Part shown: piece after piece, positions 12,369-54,227 of the stretch | Position numbering within the stretch: position 1 is the first letter of the stretch | How the letters are laid out: every line of letters starts with the position of its first letter | Source: an uncultured Clostridiaceae bacterium | GTDB lineage: Bacteria; Bacillota; Clostridia; TANB77; CAG-465 | Assembly (NCBI GenBank): GCA_964653805.1 | Contig: CAZZFS010000005.1 | Coordinates: 1,817 to 65,816, forward strand | Length of the DNA: 64,000 nt | Direction of reading: 5' to 3' | Made by a program: the position numbers and the translations under genes | Notes under the pieces: model-generated | Seen by the model: only the letters and a program-made list of their open reading frames with translations | Told to the model about the DNA's origin: nothing | Databases searched by the model: none

Positions 12369-12617
12369 ATGGCTAGAAAAAGACGAGACAGTGAATTATT
12401 AAGTGATTATCAAGATTTTGACAAAAGAGGCGCACATAAGTCAACTGGAACTAATTACAACGAAGATGGTTATGATTTATCTGGTGACGATGTAGATGGA
12501 TTCAATTTGTTAACAGGTAAGCATCGTAGCACAGGCACAAAGTACGATCCAAACGGCTATGATATTAACGGTTTCAATAAATACGGATTCGATAGAGATG
12601 GAAACTGTAACTTCTAA
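12369..12617 (+). CDS. 82-aa G-[YF]-[DN]-x-x repeat protein (mini version of 47469..49580)
   Basis: ...STGTNYNEDGYDLSGDDVDGFNLLTGKHRSTGTKYDPNGYDINGFNKYGFDRDG. AAAGGAG RBS and a strong terminator follow. Confidence 0.7.
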   Translation: MARKRRDSELLSDYQDFDKRGAHKSTGTNYNEDGYDLSGDDVDGFNLLTGKHRSTGTKYDPNGYDINGFNKYGFDRDGNCNF

Positions 12618-46492: not shown

Positions 46493-46820
46493 TTTTTATT
46501 ACACCCCCTAATAATTAGAAATATTATATCAAACATTAGTTCATATGTCAAATAATATAACACACTTAATTCTTCTGTATCTTTAACTTTGTATTATTAT
46601 ATCATTTAAGAATAAAAATGACAATAGTTTTAGAATATATAAATAGTGTTATTTTTATTTAAATATTAATAACACTTAATATTATATATTTAATATTTTT
46701 TTTGCTTGAAAAAAGCCACTAACAATTGTTAGCAGCTTTTTATTTTTTATCTGTCTATTATTTTGATTTTTTTTTACTTAAATTTTGTTTTTTTACCGTA
46801 TTTATTCTTTTTTTGATTTA

Positions 46821-47450
46821 TCAAGTATTTCTTGTACTAAATAAAATTACTGTTTTATCATTTTCCTTTTTTTGTATTTGAAATCCATTTTCTTTTGTAA
46901 ATGAAAAACTTAAGCATTCATTACAATCAAAAGAAGTATAACTGGTTTGGTAAAAAAATTCAGACCATCTACTGACAAATACATAATGTTCTTTATCAGC
47001 ATCCTTATTTTCTTCCATATCAAGTTTTATTTCGAAAATAATGTCTTTTAAAAACTCTTTTTGTGTTTTATTTTTATAAAACACATTTTTAAAAACATTT
47101 TGCTCAATATGTTCCTTGAAAATCGACATTAATTTATCAATTATTTCTTCGGAAAGCAAGATTTTTTCACCTTGATATTTAAAAAGTAATTCTTTACGTT
47201 CTTTCACTTTTTTATCATGAGGTATTGAATTAAAAGGGAATCTGTTTATTTCATCTCTTTTTTCTTCAAGTAGCGAAACAAAATTCTCAAAATCAATAAA
47301 GTATTCATAAGCTTTACTTCTTGGGTGAAACTGTTTAATTTGACTTAACAATATGTTATTTGTATTTAACATATTATCTTTTAAAGCTTTTGTAACTTCA
47401 TTAGCAATAACAACATAATCCATATTCCCAGTAACAATTTCAGTTTGCAT
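46821..47450 (-). CDS. hypothetical protein, downstream partner of the GYD-repeat gene
   Basis: 209 aa with an AAAGGAG RBS, 18 nt after the stop of 47469..49580. No motif recognised. Confidence 0.5.
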   Translation of the reverse strand: MQTEIVTGNMDYVVIANEVTKALKDNMLNTNNILLSQIKQFHPRSKAYEYFIDFENFVSLLEEKRDEINRFPFNSIPHDKKVKERKELLFKYQGEKILLSEEIIDKLMSIFKEHIEQNVFKNVFYKNKTQKEFLKDIIFEIKLDMEENKDADKEHYVFVSRWSEFFYQTSYTSFDCNECLSFSFTKENGFQIQKKENDKTVILFSTRNT

Positions 47451-47468
47451 AGATATATACTCCTTTAC

Positions 47469-49580
47469 TTAACTGCATTTTTTATTATATTTTTTTACGA
47501 GTAATCTTAAATATTCTTGAACACTATATTCACAAATATATCTTGAATTGTTTTTCATTTCATCCAAAACTATTTTCAAATGTTCTTCTGTAATTTTAAC
47601 CCCCTCAATAATGACATCCATTTCAAAATACAACTCTTCACTAAAAGGCTTTTGATATTTTCTCAAATTTGCTCTAAAATGATGAAGTTCTTTTAAGTAT
47701 TTAGTTAACTGTGGTTTCTTTTTTGCAAGTTCAATTAACTCGTCAGGAGGTACATTAAGATTTGCCATTAAAAATTGATTTTCATCTAAATTACCTTCAC
47801 CAATTTCTTTAATGAGTGCAACTAAATCTTTGATTTTTTTGTCTTGGCTTATCTTCATTAAAATTTCTCTATCGCAAATAGCAATTTTTAATTTTTTTGA
47901 AAAATTGTTTTTTACGAACTTTTCTATTCTAACAAAATCATCACGAGAAATATTGTTTTCTTCAAAAAAAGAATTTTGAGAAAGTTCTGATAGTTTGTAA
48001 TCAGCCACAAAATCAATATAGTTTTGGTTGTTTTGCTGTCTTTTACCTATTTTAGGAAAATTTCTATAATAAGTTCCATCTTCATAACAACCATTTACAT
48101 CGATTCCATTAATATCAAATTTAGTTCCAGTTTTAATATTAATTCCGGATTTATCAAAACCTTTTTTACTTATACCATTTACGTCATAATCTTCTCTGTC
48201 ATAACCAAATCTATCATAACCTTTACGATTATATATCGTTTTGGTATCTTTATGATAACCTTCTTCGTTATATCCTTGCTTATCATAACCGTTTAGATCA
48301 AAGCCATTTTTATCAAAACCTTCTTGATTGTAGCCGTTAATGTTATATCCAGCTTTATCATAACCTTCTCGATTATATCCATCTTCATTATAACCATGTT
48401 CGTTAAAACCTCGCTCATCATATAACGTATTTGTTTTAAAATGCATACCGTTTTTGTTAAAACCATTTAAGTTATATCCATCTTTGTCGTATCCATTTTC
48501 GTCATGTAACATGCCGGTAATTTGATGATAACCTAATCTATTAAATTTTCTTCTGTCAAGCCCGTAAATTGTATATCCATCCTCACCATATTTTGAATTG
48601 GTAATTTTAAAAACTCCTCGTTTATTGTGTCCAAGTCTATTAAATCCCTCTTTGTCTATACCGTATTTATTGAACCCTTCAAAGTCATATCCAGCTTTGT
48701 CATATCCAGCAAGGTTATATACAGTTCCGGTATTTAAATTAATACCATCTTCATTAAACCCAGCTTTATCATAGCCTCTTTTGTCATAACCTTTGCGATC
48801 ATAATATGTTTTGGTAACTTTATTAATCCCCTCTTTATTGAATCCTCTTTTGTCATAGCCGTCTTTATCATAACCAGCAAGATTATACATGCTTTTAGTA
48901 TCAAAAGATATACCCTTTCGGTTAAATCCATCAACATTAAACCCATTTTTATCGTAACCTTTTTCATCATATAAAGTTCCAGTATTTTGATGATAACCTA
49001 ATCTATTAAATCCTTTTTTGTCGACTCCATACATTGTATAACCATGTTCGTCATATTTTGAATCAGTAGTTTTAAAAATACCTTTTCTATTATATCCTAA
49101 TCTGTTATACCCGTATTCATCTAAACCTTTTTCATTAAAGCCGTGTTTGTCGTAACCTTTTGGATTATAACCTTTGTCGTTATATTTACTGTCAGTGTTT
49201 AAATAAAAACCATTTCGATTATAACCATCTTTATCCAAACCATCTTTATTATAACCATATTTATCAAATATAGTTTTGGTATGTTTATTTATACCTTTTT
49301 TATCGAATCCTTTTTTATCATAACCATACTTGTTGTATCCAGCAAGATTATACCGAGTTAAAGTTTCAACAGACATGCCATCTTTATCAAAACCGTGCAT
49401 ATCATAACCATACATGTTATAACCAAATCTGTCATAAAAAGTTTTGGTATACTCATTATATCCAAATTCATCAAAGCCTTTTTTTCTAGGTGAAGCTTCA
49501 CTACAATTTAAAATATAATTGTTTTTGCCAATAGAACTTCCTAAAACAATTTCATTACATTTTTTTTCTTTCATGTTCAT
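47469..49580 (-). CDS. G-[YF]-[DN]-x-x five-residue repeat protein with a helical C-terminal domain
   Basis: Residues about 35-505 are almost entirely units such as GYDKDGYDKRGFNKEGINKVTKTYYDRKGYDKRGYDKAGFNEDGINLNTGTVYNLAGYDKAGYDFEGFNKYG. The last 200 aa or so are non-repetitive. No signal peptide. The start may be the second ATG at 49574. Confidence 0.75.
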   Translation of the reverse strand: MNMKEKKCNEIVLGSSIGKNNYILNCSEASPRKKGFDEFGYNEYTKTFYDRFGYNMYGYDMHGFDKDGMSVETLTRYNLAGYNKYGYDKKGFDKKGINKHTKTIFDKYGYNKDGLDKDGYNRNGFYLNTDSKYNDKGYNPKGYDKHGFNEKGLDEYGYNRLGYNRKGIFKTTDSKYDEHGYTMYGVDKKGFNRLGYHQNTGTLYDEKGYDKNGFNVDGFNRKGISFDTKSMYNLAGYDKDGYDKRGFNKEGINKVTKTYYDRKGYDKRGYDKAGFNEDGINLNTGTVYNLAGYDKAGYDFEGFNKYGIDKEGFNRLGHNKRGVFKITNSKYGEDGYTIYGLDRRKFNRLGYHQITGMLHDENGYDKDGYNLNGFNKNGMHFKTNTLYDERGFNEHGYNEDGYNREGYDKAGYNINGYNQEGFDKNGFDLNGYDKQGYNEEGYHKDTKTIYNRKGYDRFGYDREDYDVNGISKKGFDKSGINIKTGTKFDINGIDVNGCYEDGTYYRNFPKIGKRQQNNQNYIDFVADYKLSELSQNSFFEENNISRDDFVRIEKFVKNNFSKKLKIAICDREILMKISQDKKIKDLVALIKEIGEGNLDENQFLMANLNVPPDELIELAKKKPQLTKYLKELHHFRANLRKYQKPFSEELYFEMDVIIEGVKITEEHLKIVLDEMKNNSRYICEYSVQEYLRLLVKKYNKKCS

Positions 49581-49848
49581 ATTTCCTCCTAATGTTTTTT
49601 ATATTGTAATTTTTGAACATAACAAAATTAAAATAAACTAACACTCACAAAATCATAACAAAAAAATACTAAATAACTCTAAAGAATTTATCTTTTAACA
49701 CAATATACTTAATCTTCAATATTAGTATATTTTTTTATTTACACGTTAAAAAAATTATTCTCATAGAACTACTTAGTATCTAAACACATCTCTTAATTAC
49801 ACACATTATACAACACTTTACATAATTTTTCAAGTGATACTTTTTATT

Positions 49849-50829
49849 TTAAGAATATTTATTTATTAAATATGTTGTATATTCTATTGCTGGTGTTGCA
49901 CTATGTCCTTGATTAACATATTTTTTAAATTCTATATTACTATATCCAAGATCTTTAATTATATTTTCCATTTTTTCATATCTTAATTGAAGACCTTTAC
50001 CAAAAACTTTTTCATATATATTTTGAATATCTAAATCAGTATTTCTAAAATTAAAAGCAGTGTCATTTTTATCTGTTTCATTTTCACCTATAAAATATAA
50101 CTGGTACATATTTTTAAAACTATCATAATCAAATTTACTACCAGTGATTTTCTCTATATCATATATACCAATTGGGTATGGTAAATTAATATATTCTCCT
50201 GTTTTAATTTTAATGTTTTCTAATGGTAAAATATTTTGCACACCAAAACCACCTGCTATTAATAACGATACTTTAGATGGAAAACATGTTGCATATCTTA
50301 ATACAAATTTAGCGGAAGATGAAAATCCATGACAAATAATTTTCTCCTTTAATTTAATAGATTTTTCTTTTAATATATAATCTTTTGCATAATCTATCAT
50401 GTTATTTATTTGATCAAACAATTTGTAATACGTGTTATTTTCATCTTCACAAAATACAACATTTCTAGAAGCTTGAAGAGGAAAAAATTCTTGCATATTA
50501 TTATTTAGTGGATGTATATAGTTTGAAGTAACAGGAACTAGTATAGGTTGATCTAATTTAAGCAAATCATATCCTGCTTCTATTGTTGTTTCAAAAACAG
50601 CTGAATAAATATTTAATATATCACCTTCTTGTTTTGCTAAATTATTTCCATGAAGTATTAATGTATTATTTTGTATAACGTTTGGTATATACAAAACAAA
50701 AGGAAACTTAAATAAATTATCTTTTGGCTTAATTATTTTAAAACTACCATTTGTATTATCTATTAAATTCTCTAATTTTTTTAATACTTTATCATCTATA
50801 TTTTTTAAAAATGGTAAATAATCTTTCAT
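49849..50829 (-). CDS. hypothetical protein, possibly an alpha/beta-hydrolase fold
   Basis: The ATG at 50829 (MKDYLPF) follows a GGAGG RBS. ICHGFSSSAKF resembles a nucleophile elbow. Weak call. Confidence 0.4.
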   Translation of the reverse strand: MKDYLPFLKNIDDKVLKKLENLIDNTNGSFKIIKPKDNLFKFPFVLYIPNVIQNNTLILHGNNLAKQEGDILNIYSAVFETTIEAGYDLLKLDQPILVPVTSNYIHPLNNNMQEFFPLQASRNVVFCEDENNTYYKLFDQINNMIDYAKDYILKEKSIKLKEKIICHGFSSSAKFVLRYATCFPSKVSLLIAGGFGVQNILPLENIKIKTGEYINLPYPIGIYDIEKITGSKFDYDSFKNMYQLYFIGENETDKNDTAFNFRNTDLDIQNIYEKVFGKGLQLRYEKMENIIKDLGYSNIEFKKYVNQGHSATPAIEYTTYLINKYS

Positions 50830-50982
50830 ACTACTATACCTCCACTTATGTTTAATTATTATATAATATAACATGAAGTTAATTTTAAAACAACAAATAT
50901 TGACAAATTTTCTCATTAATTATTAAACAAATTCACTATGAATACTAATACTTTTATGATATAATTACCTAAGGGTGATACA

Positions 50983-51645
50983 ATGAAAAAATTTAAATTA
51001 AAAAAGAAAGAAATTACCGCTATAACAACAGCGATTGCTTTAATACTTTTAGCTATATTTGCAAAAGATGATTTTGTTACATTATTTCAAAATGATAATA
51101 CAACATCTGATGTTTCAGGTTTAGTTACTGTTAATGATACTAAAGAAGGAAATAAAATAAAAGATACAAACTCTATTAATAATAACAATAATAATGATAC
51201 TAGTACTGTTGATTCTTCTAAATTTATAGAAGCTAAAGTTACAAGAATTGTTGATGGTGATACTATAGTTGTTAATATACAAGGAACTGAAAAAAAAGTT
51301 AGAATGATTGGTATGAATACTCCTGAGTCTACTACAAAAATAGAGACATTTGGTAAAGAAGCATCAAATTATACAACACAAAAATTAACTGATAAAACTG
51401 TATATCTTGAAAAAGATGTTAATGAAACTGATAAATATGGTCGTCTACTTAGATATGTTTGGCTTGAAATACCAAATGAAATAACTGAAACTACTATAAA
51501 AGAAAAAATGTTTAATGCTATTTTAGTTATAGAAGGATATGCACAAGTTGCTACATATCCACCAGATATAAAATATGTAGATTATTTTACTAAAATACAA
51601 AATATAGCTAAAGATGCAAATCTAGGTTTATGGCAATACAAATAA
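50983..51645 (+). CDS. thermonuclease (SNase) family secreted nuclease
   Basis: N-terminal signal/anchor helix, VTRIVDGDTIVV, VRMIGMNTPES, FGKEASNY and DKYGRLLRYVWL. Confidence 0.85.
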   Translation: MKKFKLKKKEITAITTAIALILLAIFAKDDFVTLFQNDNTTSDVSGLVTVNDTKEGNKIKDTNSINNNNNNDTSTVDSSKFIEAKVTRIVDGDTIVVNIQGTEKKVRMIGMNTPESTTKIETFGKEASNYTTQKLTDKTVYLEKDVNETDKYGRLLRYVWLEIPNEITETTIKEKMFNAILVIEGYAQVATYPPDIKYVDYFTKIQNIAKDANLGLWQYK

Positions 51646-51689
51646 ATAATGTAATTATACAAAGTTCAAAAAATCAATGCAACAAAAAC

Positions 51690-51722
51690 AAAAAAAGTTG
51701 ACAAAATCTTGTCAACTTTTTC
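51690..51722. terminator. bidirectional hairpin terminator (identical copy at 52463-52496)
   Basis: A-run-GTTGACAAAATCTTGTCAAC-T-run between convergent genes. Confidence 0.7.
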
Positions 51723-51744
51723 TTTATGTCAGTTATAAAAGACC

Positions 51745-52287
51745 TCAACCTTCATTACAATAATATCTAACGCTAAGCCTTTTTATCTTATTAAAAATAT
51801 TAATTCTTGCTGTAAATTTTGAAGAAATACGAAAAAAAACATCTTTTACATTATTTGAACCTCTCACCGAATTATCTATTTTTCTGTTTTCAAATTTTAA
51901 ATCAATTAATGCTCTTTTTATTTGTCCCACTGATATTTTTACTTCCTCTTTAACCTTGTATTCTTGATAGTATTCCTCTTTTTCACAAATTTCACCAAAA
52001 CAAGGATCAAAAACATAAATTTTATTCATAAGTTTAAATTCTATCCAACTATGAAAATAATCTCTATCATTTTTCAACTCTAAATAACCTCTTACAACAG
52101 AATCCGTTTTTTTGAAATTAATCGATAGAAAAATTGAACTTTGCCAACACCAACCTTCTAATTGATTACTTCTAATCATATAAAATGCTGGTATATCGGA
52201 TAAATTACCAATACTAATGTTTATGTCTTTTATCTTGCTTTTTACATACCGCCCTACAAAAGAACTTTCAAAATCTTTATTACTCAT
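51745..52287 (-). CDS. hypothetical protein with a possible papain/transglutaminase-like Cys-His-Asp triad
   Basis: QLEGWCWQSS ... DYFHSWIEF ... YVFDPCF, in the order and spacing seen in transglutaminase-like cysteine peptidases. Weak call. Confidence 0.4.
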   Translation of the reverse strand: MSNKDFESSFVGRYVKSKIKDINISIGNLSDIPAFYMIRSNQLEGWCWQSSIFLSINFKKTDSVVRGYLELKNDRDYFHSWIEFKLMNKIYVFDPCFGEICEKEEYYQEYKVKEEVKISVGQIKRALIDLKFENRKIDNSVRGSNNVKDVFFRISSKFTARINIFNKIKRLSVRYYCNEG

Positions 52288-52416
52288 TTTTTCTCCTTTT
52301 AATTATTAAATTTATTTATAAAAGTTTTTTATTTATATTTGTTTTATATTATATCACTTCGAACGAATTATGTCAACAAGTGTCGTCGTTTGATATTTTT
52401 TATTTTATTTTTTATT

Positions 52417-52458
52417 TTATTTGTTATTTGTTATTTGTTATTTGTTATTTGTTATTTA
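52417..52458. repeat. heptanucleotide tandem repeat (TTATTTG)5 plus one imperfect unit
   Basis: Five perfect units at 52417-52451, then TTATTTA. It lies between a terminator and the TTGACA promoter of 51745..52287. Confidence 0.9.
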
Positions 52459-52462
52459 CAAG

Positions 52463-52496
52463 AAAAAAAGTTGACAAAATCTTGTCAACTTTTTTC
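52463..52496 (-). terminator. hairpin terminator overlapping the ABC exporter stop codon
   Basis: Same GTTGACAAAATCTTGTCAAC hairpin as at 51696-51717. Confidence 0.7.
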
Positions 52497-54227
52497 TATA
52501 ATGAAATAGTTTTCTTTTTCCTTTTTGAATTTGAATTTTTCATTGCAATAATTCCCAACAATATCGAGTTGATGAGATGATATTATAATCAACCTTTCTT
52601 TTTGTTTATTACAATATGAAACTATAAACTCAATTACTTTTTGTGCTGTAAAGTAATCTAAGTTTGCTGTTGGTTCATCAAATACAAGTACCATATTATT
52701 TTCTTCAATATTGTACAGCATCCTTGCTAGAACCAATCTTTGCAACTGACCATCCGAAAATATATCCTTTCTTTCATTTGATAAAAATTCAATTACATCT
52801 TCATTTTTCGAGCTTAATTTTCCATATAAATTCAAACCTTTTAAAATTTCGATTAATTTATTTTTATCAACATCAGCTGCATTTTCACAAAAAGTTATTT
52901 CTTGCAAAATAGAGTTTTTACCAAGTTGTGATTTTGGATCATAAATGATTGAATTCTCTATAAAATTAACACATTGATTACCATTTATACAAATATTTTT
53001 TTCTGGATTTAAATATACCCCAGTTAATATTTTCAAAAGAGTTGATTTACCAGAACCAGATTCACCATACAAAAGGTTTATTGTTCCTTTTGATATTTTT
53101 AAATCTGCTGTATAAATTTTATGAGTTTTCTCATTATCATTTTTATGTTCAAAACAAAAATTTGACAACTTAATTTCATTTACATCATTTATAGATTTTT
53201 CTTTTCCTTTCAACTCAATGTAAGTTTGTGCTACACCATCCATAATTGGCAAATAACTTTTATACTCCGTATAAGAATTCATAACTCTTTGAACTTCTTG
53301 AACTTCATTTGTTAAAGTTCTTACTAAGCTTGAATACATTACACCTAAAGTAATAGCAGTTGCGAAAACTCCAACATCAATTTTTTCATAACTAAACAAT
53401 GCAACTAAAACCAAGCTTGTTGTTGATATTCCCATTGCAAAATTTTTAAATGCACTTTCTGCTATTTCTTTCATAGTCAATTTTTTTTGTGCATCTGCAA
53501 CTATTTTTTTAGAACTAACATAATTATCAATTAAATAATTTGAATGTTTCGGATTTATTGGAATTACATTTAAAACATCTTCTTTTGAAACATTTAATTT
53601 GTTAATTCTTTGACGTTCCTTTGAAAAATACTCTTTTCGTCTTTTTATTTGTCTTACTGTAATATATACAATAACAAACATACAAATAGCCATTACAATT
53701 GTAACAATTGGTAAATTTGATGAATTAGCAGCTGTTACTTTAATTGCACCTATTATAGTTCCCATATATATTAACATACCTAAAACGAAACTAACAATTA
53801 AGTCTCTAAACATTATTTTCTTTTTTATATATTCATATATATTTGTCATTAACTCAACAGGTTCAGATAATATGTTTTTACCATTTTCATCTTTTTGATA
53901 CACTTTATTTCTAACTGTTGTTAGAACATCAGTTGATTTTTGAGCTGAAGATATTTCAATATAATTTCCATACTCTATATTTATATTTTGTTGAAATATA
54001 AATATAACTTGATATATACTACTTTGTAGTGTACCAACACATAGCAATACTATCCCCCATTTTTCATTACCACTTTGAAACAGTGTGTTTGCAAACGGAA
54101 ATATGAAAGTACATGCCGCATTAAACGCTGATGTAAATAGGTTAAAGAAATAGTTTATGTACCGATACAACTTCATTTTCCCTTTTACTAACCCTAAGTT
54201 TTGCAAAAAAATCTTTTTTTCATCCAT
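52485..54227 (-). CDS. fused permease/ATPase ABC exporter
   Basis: N-terminal half with about 5-6 hydrophobic helices. The C-terminal ABC domain has GESGSGKST, FSDGQLQR and VLVFDEPTANLD. There is no C39 peptidase domain. Confidence 0.8.
   Translation of the reverse strand: MDEKKIFLQNLGLVKGKMKLYRYINYFFNLFTSAFNAACTFIFPFANTLFQSGNEKWGIVLLCVGTLQSSIYQVIFIFQQNINIEYGNYIEISSAQKSTDVLTTVRNKVYQKDENGKNILSEPVELMTNIYEYIKKKIMFRDLIVSFVLGMLIYMGTIIGAIKVTAANSSNLPIVTIVMAICMFVIVYITVRQIKRRKEYFSKERQRINKLNVSKEDVLNVIPINPKHSNYLIDNYVSSKKIVADAQKKLTMKEIAESAFKNFAMGISTTSLVLVALFSYEKIDVGVFATAITLGVMYSSLVRTLTNEVQEVQRVMNSYTEYKSYLPIMDGVAQTYIELKGKEKSINDVNEIKLSNFCFEHKNDNEKTHKIYTADLKISKGTINLLYGESGSGKSTLLKILTGVYLNPEKNICINGNQCVNFIENSIIYDPKSQLGKNSILQEITFCENAADVDKNKLIEILKGLNLYGKLSSKNEDVIEFLSNERKDIFSDGQLQRLVLARMLYNIEENNMVLVFDEPTANLDYFTAQKVIEFIVSYCNKQKERLIIISSHQLDIVGNYCNEKFKFKKEKENYFIIEKS

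What the first reader, a model, noticed from the sequence alone, without database searches (positions are those of the whole stretch)
47469..49580. 703-aa protein built from dozens of G-[YF]-[DN]-x-x five-residue units, inserted upstream of ruvB
Roughly residues 35-505 are a near-continuous 5-residue periodicity (GYDKD GYDKR GFNKE GINKV ...). It is broken every few units by a T-x-T-x-[YF]-[DN] element, and a non-repetitive helical C-terminal domain of about 200 aa follows. There is no signal peptide or TM helix.

The period equals that of classical pentapeptide-repeat proteins, but the consensus differs: the aromatic residue lies next to the Gly, rather than A(D/N)LxX. It is also not the YD/RHS consensus.

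Inference: this may be a beta-solenoid. Because it is highly charged, a DNA-mimic or scaffold role is conceivable but unproven.

The gene and its 209-aa partner occupy the position just upstream of ruvB, which has its own promoter. Many bacteria have ruvA there, and no ruvA is present in this window.
Basis: partly seen in the sequence, partly recalled or inferred. Interest (0 to 1): 0.65.

Follow-up and report, generated by a model that had tools for sequence, protein, structure and literature searches.

The report
Unannotated Gly-Tyr-Asp five-residue repeat protein
A real, selection-maintained bacterial protein is built from about ninety copies of an unannotated five-residue Gly-aromatic-Asp/Asn repeat that also fills the unresolved middle of DotG-type secretion proteins; it is predicted to be ordered but unlike any solved fold, and its function is unknown.

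Summary
The ORF at 47469-49580 (-) encodes 703 aa. Residues 35-505 have a 5-residue period (G-[YF]-[DN]-x-x) organised into 14 modules of 28 aa or more by T-x-[TS]-x-[YF]-[DN] linkers. A helical C-terminal domain (CTD) of about 185 aa follows. There is no signal peptide or TM helix.

It is not a classical pentapeptide-repeat protein. Pfam and NCBIfam give no hit, the consensus is out of register, and the array is electrically neutral. AlphaFold2 models it confidently (pLDDT 92.7 for residues 361-505) as a turn-built structure with no Foldseek neighbour in the PDB.

The repeat is widespread (at least 696 protein clusters) and fused to helicases, kinases, exonucleases and TrbI/VirB10 domains. 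The nearest described relative is the structurally unresolved mid-region of DotG/IcmE.

The array is stable. It has no indel against an 82%-identical orthologue or against three other strains, and dN/dS is 0.11.

The gene and a small downstream ORF form their own transcription unit in a lineage-specific variable spot. Neither replaces ruvA: 76 of 80 related genomes also lack ruvA beside ruvB.

Most likely it is an ordered stalk or scaffold presenting the CTD. Its function is untested.

The parts
47469..49580 (-). 703-aa gene: 34-aa leader, pentad-repeat array, helical C-terminal domain
   Evidence: ORF. An 82%-identical 701-aa orthologue in L086 has no internal indel; dN/dS 0.14 overall.
48066..49478 (-). 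Repeat array, residues 35-505. It has 14 modules. Each module is a 13-aa G-x4-T-x-[TS]-x-[YF]-[DN]-x-x unit plus three or more G-[YF]-[DN]-x-x pentads. Spacings between linker units are 28,28,28,43,28 | 28,28,28,43,28 | 28,63,38.
   Evidence: AF2 pLDDT is mostly 80-92 in the full model and 92.7 for residues 361-505 alone. dN/dS 0.11. No indels in three other strains.
47472..48032 (-). Helical C-terminal domain (CTD), residues 517-703
   Evidence: Helices 518-702, pLDDT about 85-92. The family has 196 clusters at E<=1e-3 among 1.84 billion representatives. No Pfam or PDB relative.
47508..47744 (-). Most conserved CTD module, residues 613-691: Y-[KR]-x-P-[FY] ... I-T-E-E ... Y-I-C-x-x-[ST]-V, with invariant Cys683
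   Evidence: Profile built from 31 of the 120 listed homologues; the query scores 52.5 bits. C683 is invariant and T686 nearly invariant in alignment A1.
46821..47450 (-). 209-aa partner gene, 18 nt downstream; near-orphan
   Evidence: Only three relatives (78-89% identity) in 5.8 billion proteins, all in the same position next to the repeat gene and ruvB. No Pfam, NCBIfam, PADLOC or PHROGs hit.
49805..49833 (-). Promoter-like site (TTGAAA-17-TATAAT, 11 of 12) about 225 nt upstream of the start codon
   Evidence: a consensus match only.
49585..49590 (-). AGGAGG ribosome-binding site, 4 nt before the ATG
   Evidence: Read from the sequence.
46710..46741 (-). Terminator-like palindrome followed by a T-run after the 209-aa gene; it closes the two-gene unit before ruvB's own promoter (46523-46551)
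   Evidence: Inverted repeat I13, 19-nt arms, 89% complementary; sequence; ruvB promoter 12/12 with TG.
12369..12617 (+). Second member of the repeat class in the window: an 82-aa ORF made only of linker and pentad units

Best explanation
This is a real two-gene cassette (703 aa plus 209 aa) with its own promoter-like and terminator-like signals. It was acquired at a variable spot upstream of ruvB in one narrow, low-GC, uncultured Clostridia lineage, and nothing links it functionally to ruvAB.

The 703-aa protein is cytoplasmic. Its 470-residue array belongs to a widespread but unannotated repeat class, G-[YF]-[DN]-[KR]-x, punctuated by G-x4-T-x-T-x-Y-D units.

Inferred mechanism:
- The invariant Gly, the aromatic residue and the Asx residue form a fixed, turn-built framework.
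- Pentad positions 4 and 5 form a variable, charged surface.
- The array therefore acts as an ordered, elongated stalk or interaction scaffold. It is not a classical pentapeptide beta-helix and not a DNA mimic.
- The array presents the helical C-terminal domain, which is the functional head and probably works with the small protein encoded immediately downstream.

In other proteins the same repeat class sits between two functional parts. Examples are a membrane anchor and a TrbI/VirB10 domain (as in DotG/IcmE-like proteins), a membrane anchor and an exonuclease, and a small N-terminal domain and a UvrD helicase.

Shown: the anatomy, the distribution, the stability, the selection, and the absence of known-family or known-fold matches. 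Inferred: the stalk/scaffold role, the CTD-partner interaction and the cytoplasmic site of action.
For: - The repeat is real and position-specific. Orthologue substitution rates are p1 2%, p2 15%, p3 21%, p4 26%, p5 42%.
- Purifying selection with a fixed copy number: dN/dS is 0.11 with zero internal indels against L086. Contigs from three other environments have no gaps in the array. DNA copies are only 60-72% identical.
- The predicted structure is ordered: pLDDT 92.7 and pTM 0.64 for residues 361-505, with only isolated beta-bridges.
- No PDB or BFVD analogue.
- At least 696 homologous clusters with many fusion partners. The array lies between a TM helix and TrbI in P0088 and P0094, between TM helices and an RNase_T domain in P0033, and before a UvrD helicase in P0002. 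A Photobacterium DotG carries the same unit.
- The CTD is a portable module of 196 clusters, also found behind DUF4116 repeats and a ResIII helicase.
- A small downstream ORF sits within -8 to +24 nt in six loci carrying a repeat-plus-CTD gene (window, L003, L091, L092, L094, L097); a seventh, L002, has one after a 132-nt gap.
- Own promoter-like and terminator-like sites.
- No TM or signal segment.
Against: - There is no experimental or expression evidence. Only DNA runs were found.
- AlphaFold2 can be over-confident on regular repeats. I could not inspect coordinates, so the topology (a chain of minimal hairpins, or one coil per module) is unresolved.
- The full-length pTM is only 0.30.
- The window's 209-aa partner shows no significant similarity to the small-partner family found beside other family members (-0.3 bits), so the two-gene module is conserved in position only.
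- The CTD has no recognisable function. It gives only weak Foldseek hits to HTH domains, E > 1.
- 'Scaffold' is a generic role.
Confidence: 0.5

Rival explanations
1. Sensor or recognition array of a conflict (anti-phage or toxin) system. The variable p4/p5 surface would recognise an invader component. The CTD and the small partner would act as effector and regulator, or as a toxin-immunity-like pair.
For: - The cassette lies in a lineage-variable segment and is absent from 80 related loci.
- It sits near an SNase that matches a PADLOC candidate model, and near an ABC-type ATPase with weak PADLOC hits.
- The repeat is fused elsewhere to UvrD helicases, HNH (PF13391), PF14487 (which I recall as the DarT family, not checked here), RNase_T, Ser/Thr kinases and VWA domains.
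- A phage contig carries seven tandem paralogues whose pentad tails vary in length.
- A tightly coupled small downstream gene recurs.
Against: - PADLOC and PHROGs give no hit for the 703-, 209- or 355-aa proteins.
- Selection is purifying, not diversifying (dN/dS 0.11), and the copy number is fixed.
- No enzymatic or toxin domain is detectable in either protein.
- Neighbours of family members are ordinary housekeeping genes.
Confidence: 0.2
2. The array is a low-complexity, largely disordered Tyr/Lys/Asp/Asn/Gly-rich region. It would act as a flexible tether or a 'sticker' region that drives condensates, and the confident AlphaFold2 model would be an artefact of regularity.
For: - Composition is G 16%, Y 12%, K 12%, N 11%, D 11%.
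- DSSP finds almost no regular secondary structure.
- Full-length pTM is 0.30.
- No structural neighbour exists in the PDB.
- Published models of the DotG mid-region were low-confidence.
Against: - pLDDT is 92.7 with no residue below 50 in the 145-aa fragment, and pTM is 0.64.
- The number of units is conserved exactly between species and strains.
- Constraint is strongly position-specific.
- dN/dS is as low in the array (0.11) as in the folded CTD (0.16).
Confidence: 0.12
3. One reading: a pentapeptide-repeat-like right-handed quadrilateral beta-helix acting as a DNA mimic, like Qnr or MfpA. It would bind gyrase, restriction enzymes or other DNA-binding proteins.
For: - The period is 5 and the arrays are long and tandem.
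- Isolated beta-bridges in DSSP would also be expected for such a helix (my recollection).
- Many relatives are fused to DNA enzymes.
- Other family arrays are mildly acidic, median -0.04 charge per residue.
Against: - No Pfam pentapeptide model matches, even at E = 0.1.
- Neither model gives a Foldseek hit to any pentapeptide-repeat structure.
- The consensus order small-aromatic-Asx is out of register with A-[DN]-[LF]-x-x. With the aromatic residue pointing inward, the most variable, charged position (p5) would have to be buried (plus my knowledge of that fold).
- The 3-residue insert after every fifth unit does not fit a 20-residue coil.
- The array is neutral: net charge +1, pI 7.7.
Confidence: 0.07

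Closest known systems
Mid-region repeats of DotG/IcmE (VirB10-like subunit of type IVB secretion systems)
   Same: - Tandem short repeats with a G-[FY]-[STND] core. The published Legionella motif is [KR]-x-A-G-[FY]-[STND]-x-x-x-[LI].
- The published reports find only weak Pentapeptide_4 similarity, an AlphaFold model that is not the classic beta-helix, and no resolved structure.
- A Photobacterium DotG matches the query (E = 3e-15) and carries G-[FYL]-[ND]-x-x units.
- Five of the 120 best homologues carry a TrbI domain after the same pentads.
   Different: - The window protein has no TM helix and no TrbI domain, so it is cytoplasmic rather than envelope-spanning.
- Its period is 5 with T-x-T linkers, not a 10-residue unit with Ala and Leu/Ile.
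- Its copy number is fixed, whereas DotG repeat number varies between strains.
- Homology to the Legionella decapeptide itself was not tested.
Pentapeptide-repeat proteins (Pfam PF00805, PF13599 and related; Qnr, MfpA, Rfr)
   Same: Five-residue tandem period; long uninterrupted arrays; an Asp/Asn and a hydrophobic or aromatic residue in every unit.
   Different: - Different consensus and register (G-[YF]-[DN]-x-x against A-[DN]-[LF]-x-x).
- No HMM match.
- The model has no Foldseek similarity to any solved pentapeptide-repeat structure.
- The charge is neutral.
- 3-residue inserts recur every 28 residues.
YD / RHS repeats (PF05593, TIGR01643)
   Same: Tyr-Asp dipeptide and Gly-rich, turn-forming tandem repeats.
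   Different: YD repeats are, to my knowledge, about 20-residue units (G-x3-R-Y-x-Y-D-x2-G-R-L) that form beta-hairpins of a shell around a toxin domain. There is no HMM match here, the period is 5, and there is no RHS core or toxin domain.
DUF4116-repeat proteins that carry the same C-terminal domain
   Same: The CTD of about 185 aa (Y-K-x-P-F ... I-C-x-K-T-V module) is shared. It sits at the C-terminus after a repeat array.
   Different: The N-terminal array is DUF4116 (PF13475), not the pentad repeat. The function of these proteins is equally unknown.

Membership tests
Pentapeptide-repeat family (Pfam PF00805/PF13599/PF13576/PF01469) | Tandem repeats with a 5-residue period | tested here: met
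   Lag-5 identity 0.29 against 0.09 +/- 0.013 in shuffles; 53 strict pentads.
Pentapeptide-repeat family (Pfam PF00805/PF13599/PF13576/PF01469) | Match to a Pfam pentapeptide HMM / consensus A-[DN]-[LF]-x-x | tested here: not met
   No pentapeptide model among the Pfam hits at E <= 0.1. The consensus is G-[YF]-[DN]-[KR]-x.
Pentapeptide-repeat family (Pfam PF00805/PF13599/PF13576/PF01469) | Right-handed quadrilateral beta-helix, 20 residues per coil | tested here: not met
   Foldseek of the full model and of the repeat-only model against the PDB gave no pentapeptide-repeat structure (best E 1.3 and 9.1). Caveat: the coordinates were not inspected, and repeat masking could lower sensitivity.
DotG/IcmE-type mid-region repeat | Tandem short repeats with a G-[FY]-[STND] core | tested here: met
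   Compared with the Photobacterium DotG sequence and the published Legionella motif.
DotG/IcmE-type mid-region repeat | 10-residue unit [KR]-x-A-G-[FY]-[STND]-x-x-x-[LI] | tested here: not met
   The period is 5; there is no conserved Ala before Gly and no Leu/Ile at unit ends.
DotG/IcmE-type mid-region repeat | Placed between an N-terminal TM helix and a C-terminal TrbI/VirB10 domain | tested here: not met
   The window protein has no TM segment and no TrbI domain. Relatives P0088 and P0094 do have this layout.
YD/RHS repeat proteins | Match to RHS_repeat (PF05593) or YD_repeat (TIGR01643) models | tested here: not met
   No such hit in Pfam or NCBIfam.
Unnamed 'pentad array + CTD' family (defined here) | C-terminal conserved module with invariant Cys (Y-K-x-P-F ... 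I-C-x-x-T-V) | tested here: met
   The query scores 52.5 bits against a profile built from homologues. C683 is invariant in A1 and A2.
Unnamed 'pentad array + CTD' family (defined here) | Small downstream ORF, homologous across loci | tested here: inconclusive
   Position is conserved in the window and six other loci. Five of the small proteins are homologous to one another (E 3e-17 to 9e-5). The window's 209-aa protein is not significantly similar (-0.3 bits).
RuvA (positional expectation upstream of ruvB) | RuvA domains or similarity to RuvA | tested here: not met
   Neither the 703-aa nor the 209-aa protein has a RuvA Pfam hit. tblastn with three genuine RuvA proteins finds nothing significant in the window, and the weak hits lie on GNAT acetyltransferases.
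Known anti-phage defence systems (PADLOC-DB 2.0) | Match of any cassette protein to a defence-system model | tested here: not met
   No hit for the 703-, 209- or 355-aa proteins.

The most novel reading that the evidence does not exclude
The G-[YF]-[DN]-x-x array is a new ordered fold class, built almost entirely from consecutive tight turns with an aromatic/Asx ladder. It would be the same material as the still-unresolved 'collar' or mid-region of DotG/IcmE-type secretion proteins. Small, soluble, cytoplasmic members such as this protein (or its 145-residue fragment, or the 82-aa mini-protein) would then be a tractable route to that structure. They would also give a route to a two-gene module (array-CTD plus small partner) with a so far unknown cellular role.
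Probability: 0.35. Interest if true: 0.75.

Novelty: new variant of a known kind. Interest (0 to 1): 0.55.

Why it matters
Short tandem-repeat scaffolds such as pentapeptide, hexapeptide, RTX and YD repeats each turned out to have a characteristic fold and use. This repeat is at least as widespread: at least 696 clusters, seen in records labelled Clostridia/Bacillota, Fusobacteria, Saccharibacteria, Actinomycetes, Bacteroidota and Proteobacteria, and in some phage contigs. Yet it has no Pfam or NCBIfam model, no paper in the searched library and no solved structure.

Its nearest described relative, the DotG/IcmE mid-region, is a part of the Legionella Dot/Icm machine that remains unmodelled in the 2025-2026 structures I read. 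A confident prediction with no PDB neighbour, combined with exact copy-number conservation, makes a defined new fold plausible and directly testable with a small soluble construct.

For this genome the practical result is more modest. The cassette is a lineage-specific accessory unit and says nothing about Holliday-junction processing.

Tried and rejected
- **Pfam PF25296 'Decapeptide repeat region'.** It appears among precomputed hits of relatives, but the scores are below threshold (27-32 bits against a cutoff of 45). The only papers that use this phrase concern eukaryotic p180/RRBP1 and CERLI2 repeats. I treated the hits as composition noise; I did not verify what the model was built from.\n- **Sequence search of the PDB.** The whole protein gave nothing. 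The CTD profile gave only chance-level hits such as ApcE linkers and PDCD10.\n- **PHROGs and PADLOC.** Nothing for the cassette proteins.\n- **Phage genome records.** tblastn against INPHARED found no hit.\n- **Literature.** String searches for typical repeat peptides found no relevant paper.\n- **CTD as an HTH or sigma-like DNA-binding domain.** Evidence is limited to Foldseek hits with E > 1 (DeoR, TetR, LysR DNA-binding domains), a 15-bit NCBIfam SigK hit, and no consistent Pfam signal across 16 members.
Full report
**1. Observation**

The ORF at 47469..49580 on the minus strand encodes 703 aa. An AGGAGG site lies 4 nt before the ATG. A near-consensus promoter-like site (TTGAAA-17-TATAAT) lies about 225 nt upstream.

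Within residues 31-525, residue identity at lag 5 is 0.29, against 0.090 +/- 0.013 in 1000 shuffles. Of 80 Gly-Gly spacings, 53 are exactly 5. I count 53 strict G-x4-G pentads (position 2 is Y/F in 45, position 3 is D/N in 49) and 14 linker units G-x4-T-x-[TS]-x-[YF]-[DN]. Read as a pentad plus a 3-residue insert plus a pentad whose Gly is replaced, the linker gives a basic module of 28 aa. Successive linker units are spaced 28,28,28,43,28 | 28,28,28,43,28 | 28,63,38. This reflects a 155-aa higher-order duplication, with 38 of 57 residues identical between 157-213 and 312-368.

The last 185 aa or so are non-repetitive and modelled as all-helical. Neither this protein nor the 209-aa protein encoded 18 nt downstream has a TM-like or signal-like segment. 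Their maximum 19-residue hydropathy is 0.74, against 1.94 for the neighbouring SNase.

**2. Not a known family**

Pfam and NCBIfam give nothing for the 703-aa or 209-aa proteins at E <= 0.1 beyond chance-level hits. No pentapeptide, YD/RHS or MORN model matches. PADLOC and PHROGs give nothing. The PDB holds no sequence relative. Searches for typical peptide strings found no paper that describes the repeat. The Pfam 'Decapeptide' model that appears for some relatives scores below threshold. The only papers that use that phrase concern eukaryotic repeats.

**3. Distribution and architecture**

The protein search returned 696 clusters at E <= 1e-3, among only 8000 scored candidates. In these proteins the array is N-terminal, internal or C-terminal. 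Among the 120 listed hits it is fused to:
- UvrD-type helicases (about 20)
- double zinc ribbons
- DUF6273
- TrbI/VirB10 domains (5)
- RNase_T exonucleases
- PelG
- Ser/Thr kinases
- VWA domains
- sigma-70 region 4
- HNH and PF14487

Source names include Anaerovoracaceae, Butyrivibrio, Ilyobacter, Enorma, TM7, Riflebacteria and Bacteroidota. Plasmid hits add Gordonia, Cetobacterium, Fusobacterium, Alteromonas and a Photobacterium 'DotG/IcmE/VirB10 family protein'.

Family-wide, position 2 is Y/F in 88% of pentads, position 3 is D/N in 92%, position 4 is R/K in 66%, and position 5 is variable. Position 1 is Gly by the way I selected pentads.

Reading sequences shows that the array typically sits between two functional parts:
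- TM helix, array, TrbI domain (P0088, P0094)
- TM helices, array, zinc ribbon, exonuclease (P0033)
- small domain, array, UvrD helicase (P0002)

**4. The C-terminal domain**

Of the 120 listed homologues, 31 share a conserved C-terminal module of about 84 aa with the query (Y-[KR]-x-P-[FY] ... I-T-E-E ... Y-I-C-x-x-T-V). Cys683 is invariant.

An exhaustive profile search of 1.84 billion representatives found only 196 clusters at E <= 1e-3, nearly always with the domain at the C-terminus. Of 141 newly listed proteins, 58 have pentads upstream. Others have DUF4116 repeats instead (P0200 at 79.5 bits, P0207 at 36.7 bits), one has a ResIII/DEAD helicase, and many are short. So the CTD is a portable head that pairs with different repeat arrays.

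Its function is unknown. There are only weak Foldseek hits to HTH domains (E > 1) and no consistent Pfam signal.

**5. Predicted structure**

With a 31-sequence alignment, the full-length AlphaFold2 model has mean pLDDT 75.5 and pTM 0.30. Most of the array scores 80-92, with breaks at some linkers, and the CTD is helical.

Residues 361-505 modelled alone (17 sequences) give pLDDT 92.7 and pTM 0.64, with no residue below 50. DSSP finds only isolated beta-bridges, at the aromatic residue of one pentad and the Asx of the next. Such a pattern fits either a chain of minimal hairpins (bridges at i/i+6) or bridges between successive modules (i/i+23 or i/i+28). I could not inspect coordinates, so this stays open.

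Foldseek found no significant neighbour:
- PDB, full model: best E 1.3, with the top hits lying on the helical CTD
- PDB, repeat-only model: a single hit at E 9.1
- BFVD: best E 0.06

No pentapeptide-repeat structure appears among the hits. In addition, as I recall the geometry of that fold, the central residue and the residue two before it point inward. With the conserved aromatic at the centre, the buried partner would be position 5, the most variable and charged position. The array is also neutral, with net charge +1 over 471 aa and pI 7.7, which argues against a strongly acidic DNA mimic.

**6. Stability and selection**

A Logan contig (L086) from a related organism carries the same locus: SNase, a 326-aa gene, a 701-aa gene, the 209-aa gene, ruvB and queH. 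The 701-aa orthologue is 82.5% identical (578 of 701 residues) with no internal indel. dN/dS is 0.11 in the array and 0.16 in the CTD.

Contigs from three further metagenomes (electrolysis cell, landfill, sediment; about 96-98% nucleotide identity) cover 47725-50000 with no gap inside the repeat-coding region. All gaps fall in intergenic DNA, in the partner gene or at the extreme 3' end. At the DNA level the copies are only 60-72% identical. The array is therefore not a slippage-prone contingency locus.

**7. Genomic context**

Using RuvB as an anchor, 80 loci from uncultured Clostridia MAGs were retrieved (64-85% RuvB identity, including 'Clostridium sp. CAG:921' and 'CAG:465'). ruvB-queH-297aa is conserved, but none of the 80 has the 703-, 209- or 355-aa genes within 10 kb.

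Upstream of ruvB, those genomes have an RNA methyltransferase (PF04452), an LD-carboxypeptidase, an SNase or a polysaccharide deacetylase. All of these lie further upstream in the window. So roughly 46.5-54.3 kb is a variable segment and the cassette is lineage-specific.

Genuine ruvA sits next to ruvB in only the four most distant loci. The window has no ruvA. The idea that the cassette occupies ruvA's place is therefore wrong for this lineage.

The pair has its own signals. A terminator-like palindrome at 46710-46741 follows the 209-aa gene, and a perfect extended -10 promoter precedes ruvB.

**8. The partner**

The 209-aa protein has only three relatives (78-89% identity) in 5.8 billion proteins, all in the same position.

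Every other repeat-plus-CTD gene whose downstream DNA I could read is also followed by a small ORF with no Pfam hit:

| Locus | Size | Spacing |
|---|---|---|
| L003 | 141 aa | overlaps by 8 nt |
| L091 | 109 aa | 15-nt gap |
| L092 | 117 aa | no gap |
| L094 | 78 aa | overlaps by 4 nt |
| L097 | 119 aa | 24-nt gap |
| L002 | truncated | 132-nt gap |

Five of these are homologous to one another (E 3e-17 to 9e-5). They share a basic amphipathic N-terminal helix and an L-[ST]-D-[EQ]-E-L ... L-Y-K-x-Q-I-E-E-K motif. The window's partner and the L003 protein are not significantly similar to them (-0.3 bits for the window's partner). The partnership is conserved in position, but not demonstrably in sequence.

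**9. Closest known**

The literature describes the Legionella DotG mid-domain as having 10-residue repeats, [KR]-x-A-G-[FY]-[STND]-x-x-x-[LI], with only weak Pentapeptide_4 hits. Its AlphaFold model lacks the classic beta-helix, and scanning the PDB with the motif found no protein other than DotG. Its copy number varies between strains, and it is proposed to form the periplasmic 'collar'. It remains unresolved in the 2025-2026 structures.

The window's repeat shares the G-aromatic-Asx core. The identical pentad type occurs in TrbI-domain proteins and in a Photobacterium DotG. The window protein differs in being cytoplasmic, in lacking TrbI, in having period 5 with T-x-T linkers, and in having a fixed copy number.

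**10. Verdict**

The feature is real and belongs to a widespread, unannotated repeat class. The best-supported reading (confidence 0.5) is an ordered, elongated stalk or scaffold. A fixed Gly-aromatic-Asx framework carries a variable charged surface and presents a helical head domain that probably works with the small downstream protein.

The rivals are a sensor array of a conflict system (0.2), a disordered low-complexity tether (0.12) and a pentapeptide-like DNA mimic (0.07). No function has been tested.

Noticed in passing
window 12369-12617 (+): An 82-aa ORF made only of the same repeat (two G-x-H-[KR]-S-T-G-T-x-Y-[ND] linker units plus pentads) lies 35 kb from the main gene. It is a stand-alone mini-member, with no TM segment and no library hits.
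   Followed up: partly
L100 2836-11575 (IMGVR_UViG_3300037010_003043): A 70-kb viral contig carries seven tandem paralogous genes. Each has a conserved N-terminal domain of about 310 aa and a C-terminal tail of pure acidic G-Y-D-x-D pentads. The copy number ranges from 0 to 22 between paralogues, so here the array length is variable. In L101, a 119-aa pentad-only ORF and more pentad-coding sequence just downstream of it precede a 555-aa helicase-like ORF.
   Followed up: partly
L091 6642-6971; L097 4747-5106; L092 5024-5377; L094 4380-4616; L002 7453-7560: A family of small (78-119 aa), basic, unannotated proteins is encoded immediately downstream of repeat-plus-CTD genes. They share the motifs [EQ]-N-I-F-x-K-I-[KR]-x4-K-L-F-[KR]-K and L-[ST]-D-[EQ]-E-L ... 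L-Y-K-x-Q-I-E-E-K.
   Followed up: partly
L004-L083 (ruvB-anchored loci): In 76 of 80 related Clostridia MAGs, ruvA is not within 10 kb of ruvB. Only the four most distant loci (L079, L081, L082, L083) have the usual ruvA-ruvB pair. ruvB-queH-297aa is the conserved unit in this lineage.
   Followed up: yes
window 49849-50916 (-): The 355-aa gene upstream of the repeat gene is inherited together with the cassette: it is 91% identical in L086 and absent from the 80 relatives. The orthologue starts at the window protein's Met30, so the true start is probably 50829. It has no Pfam hit. An 'HGFSSSA' string looks to me like a hydrolase nucleophile motif.
   Followed up: no
window 50983-54227: The variable segment also holds an SNase with an N-terminal hydrophobic segment that matches PADLOC candidate model C3a212 (E = 8e-30). 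It also holds a 580-aa ABC-type ATPase/permease with hits to PADLOC mads_3 (E = 3e-18) and AriA, and an unannotated 180-aa gene.
   Followed up: no
P0200, P0207, P0150, P0167 (one search hits): The same C-terminal domain occurs behind DUF4116 repeats and, once, at the end of a 2209-aa ResIII/DEAD helicase. It is therefore a portable module independent of the pentad repeat.
   Followed up: partly
window 46821-49580 (runs X1-X20): Near-identical sequence occurs in rock, landfill, sludge, groundwater, sediment and electrolysis-cell metagenomes. The closest RuvB relatives, in contrast, come mostly from animal and human gut MAGs.
   Followed up: no
window 48479-49112 (residues 157-368): The array contains a 155-residue higher-order duplication. 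Lag-155 identity is 0.39 over the array and 0.62 locally (residues 150-215). Its five-module pattern (28,28,28,43,28) occurs twice.
   Followed up: yes
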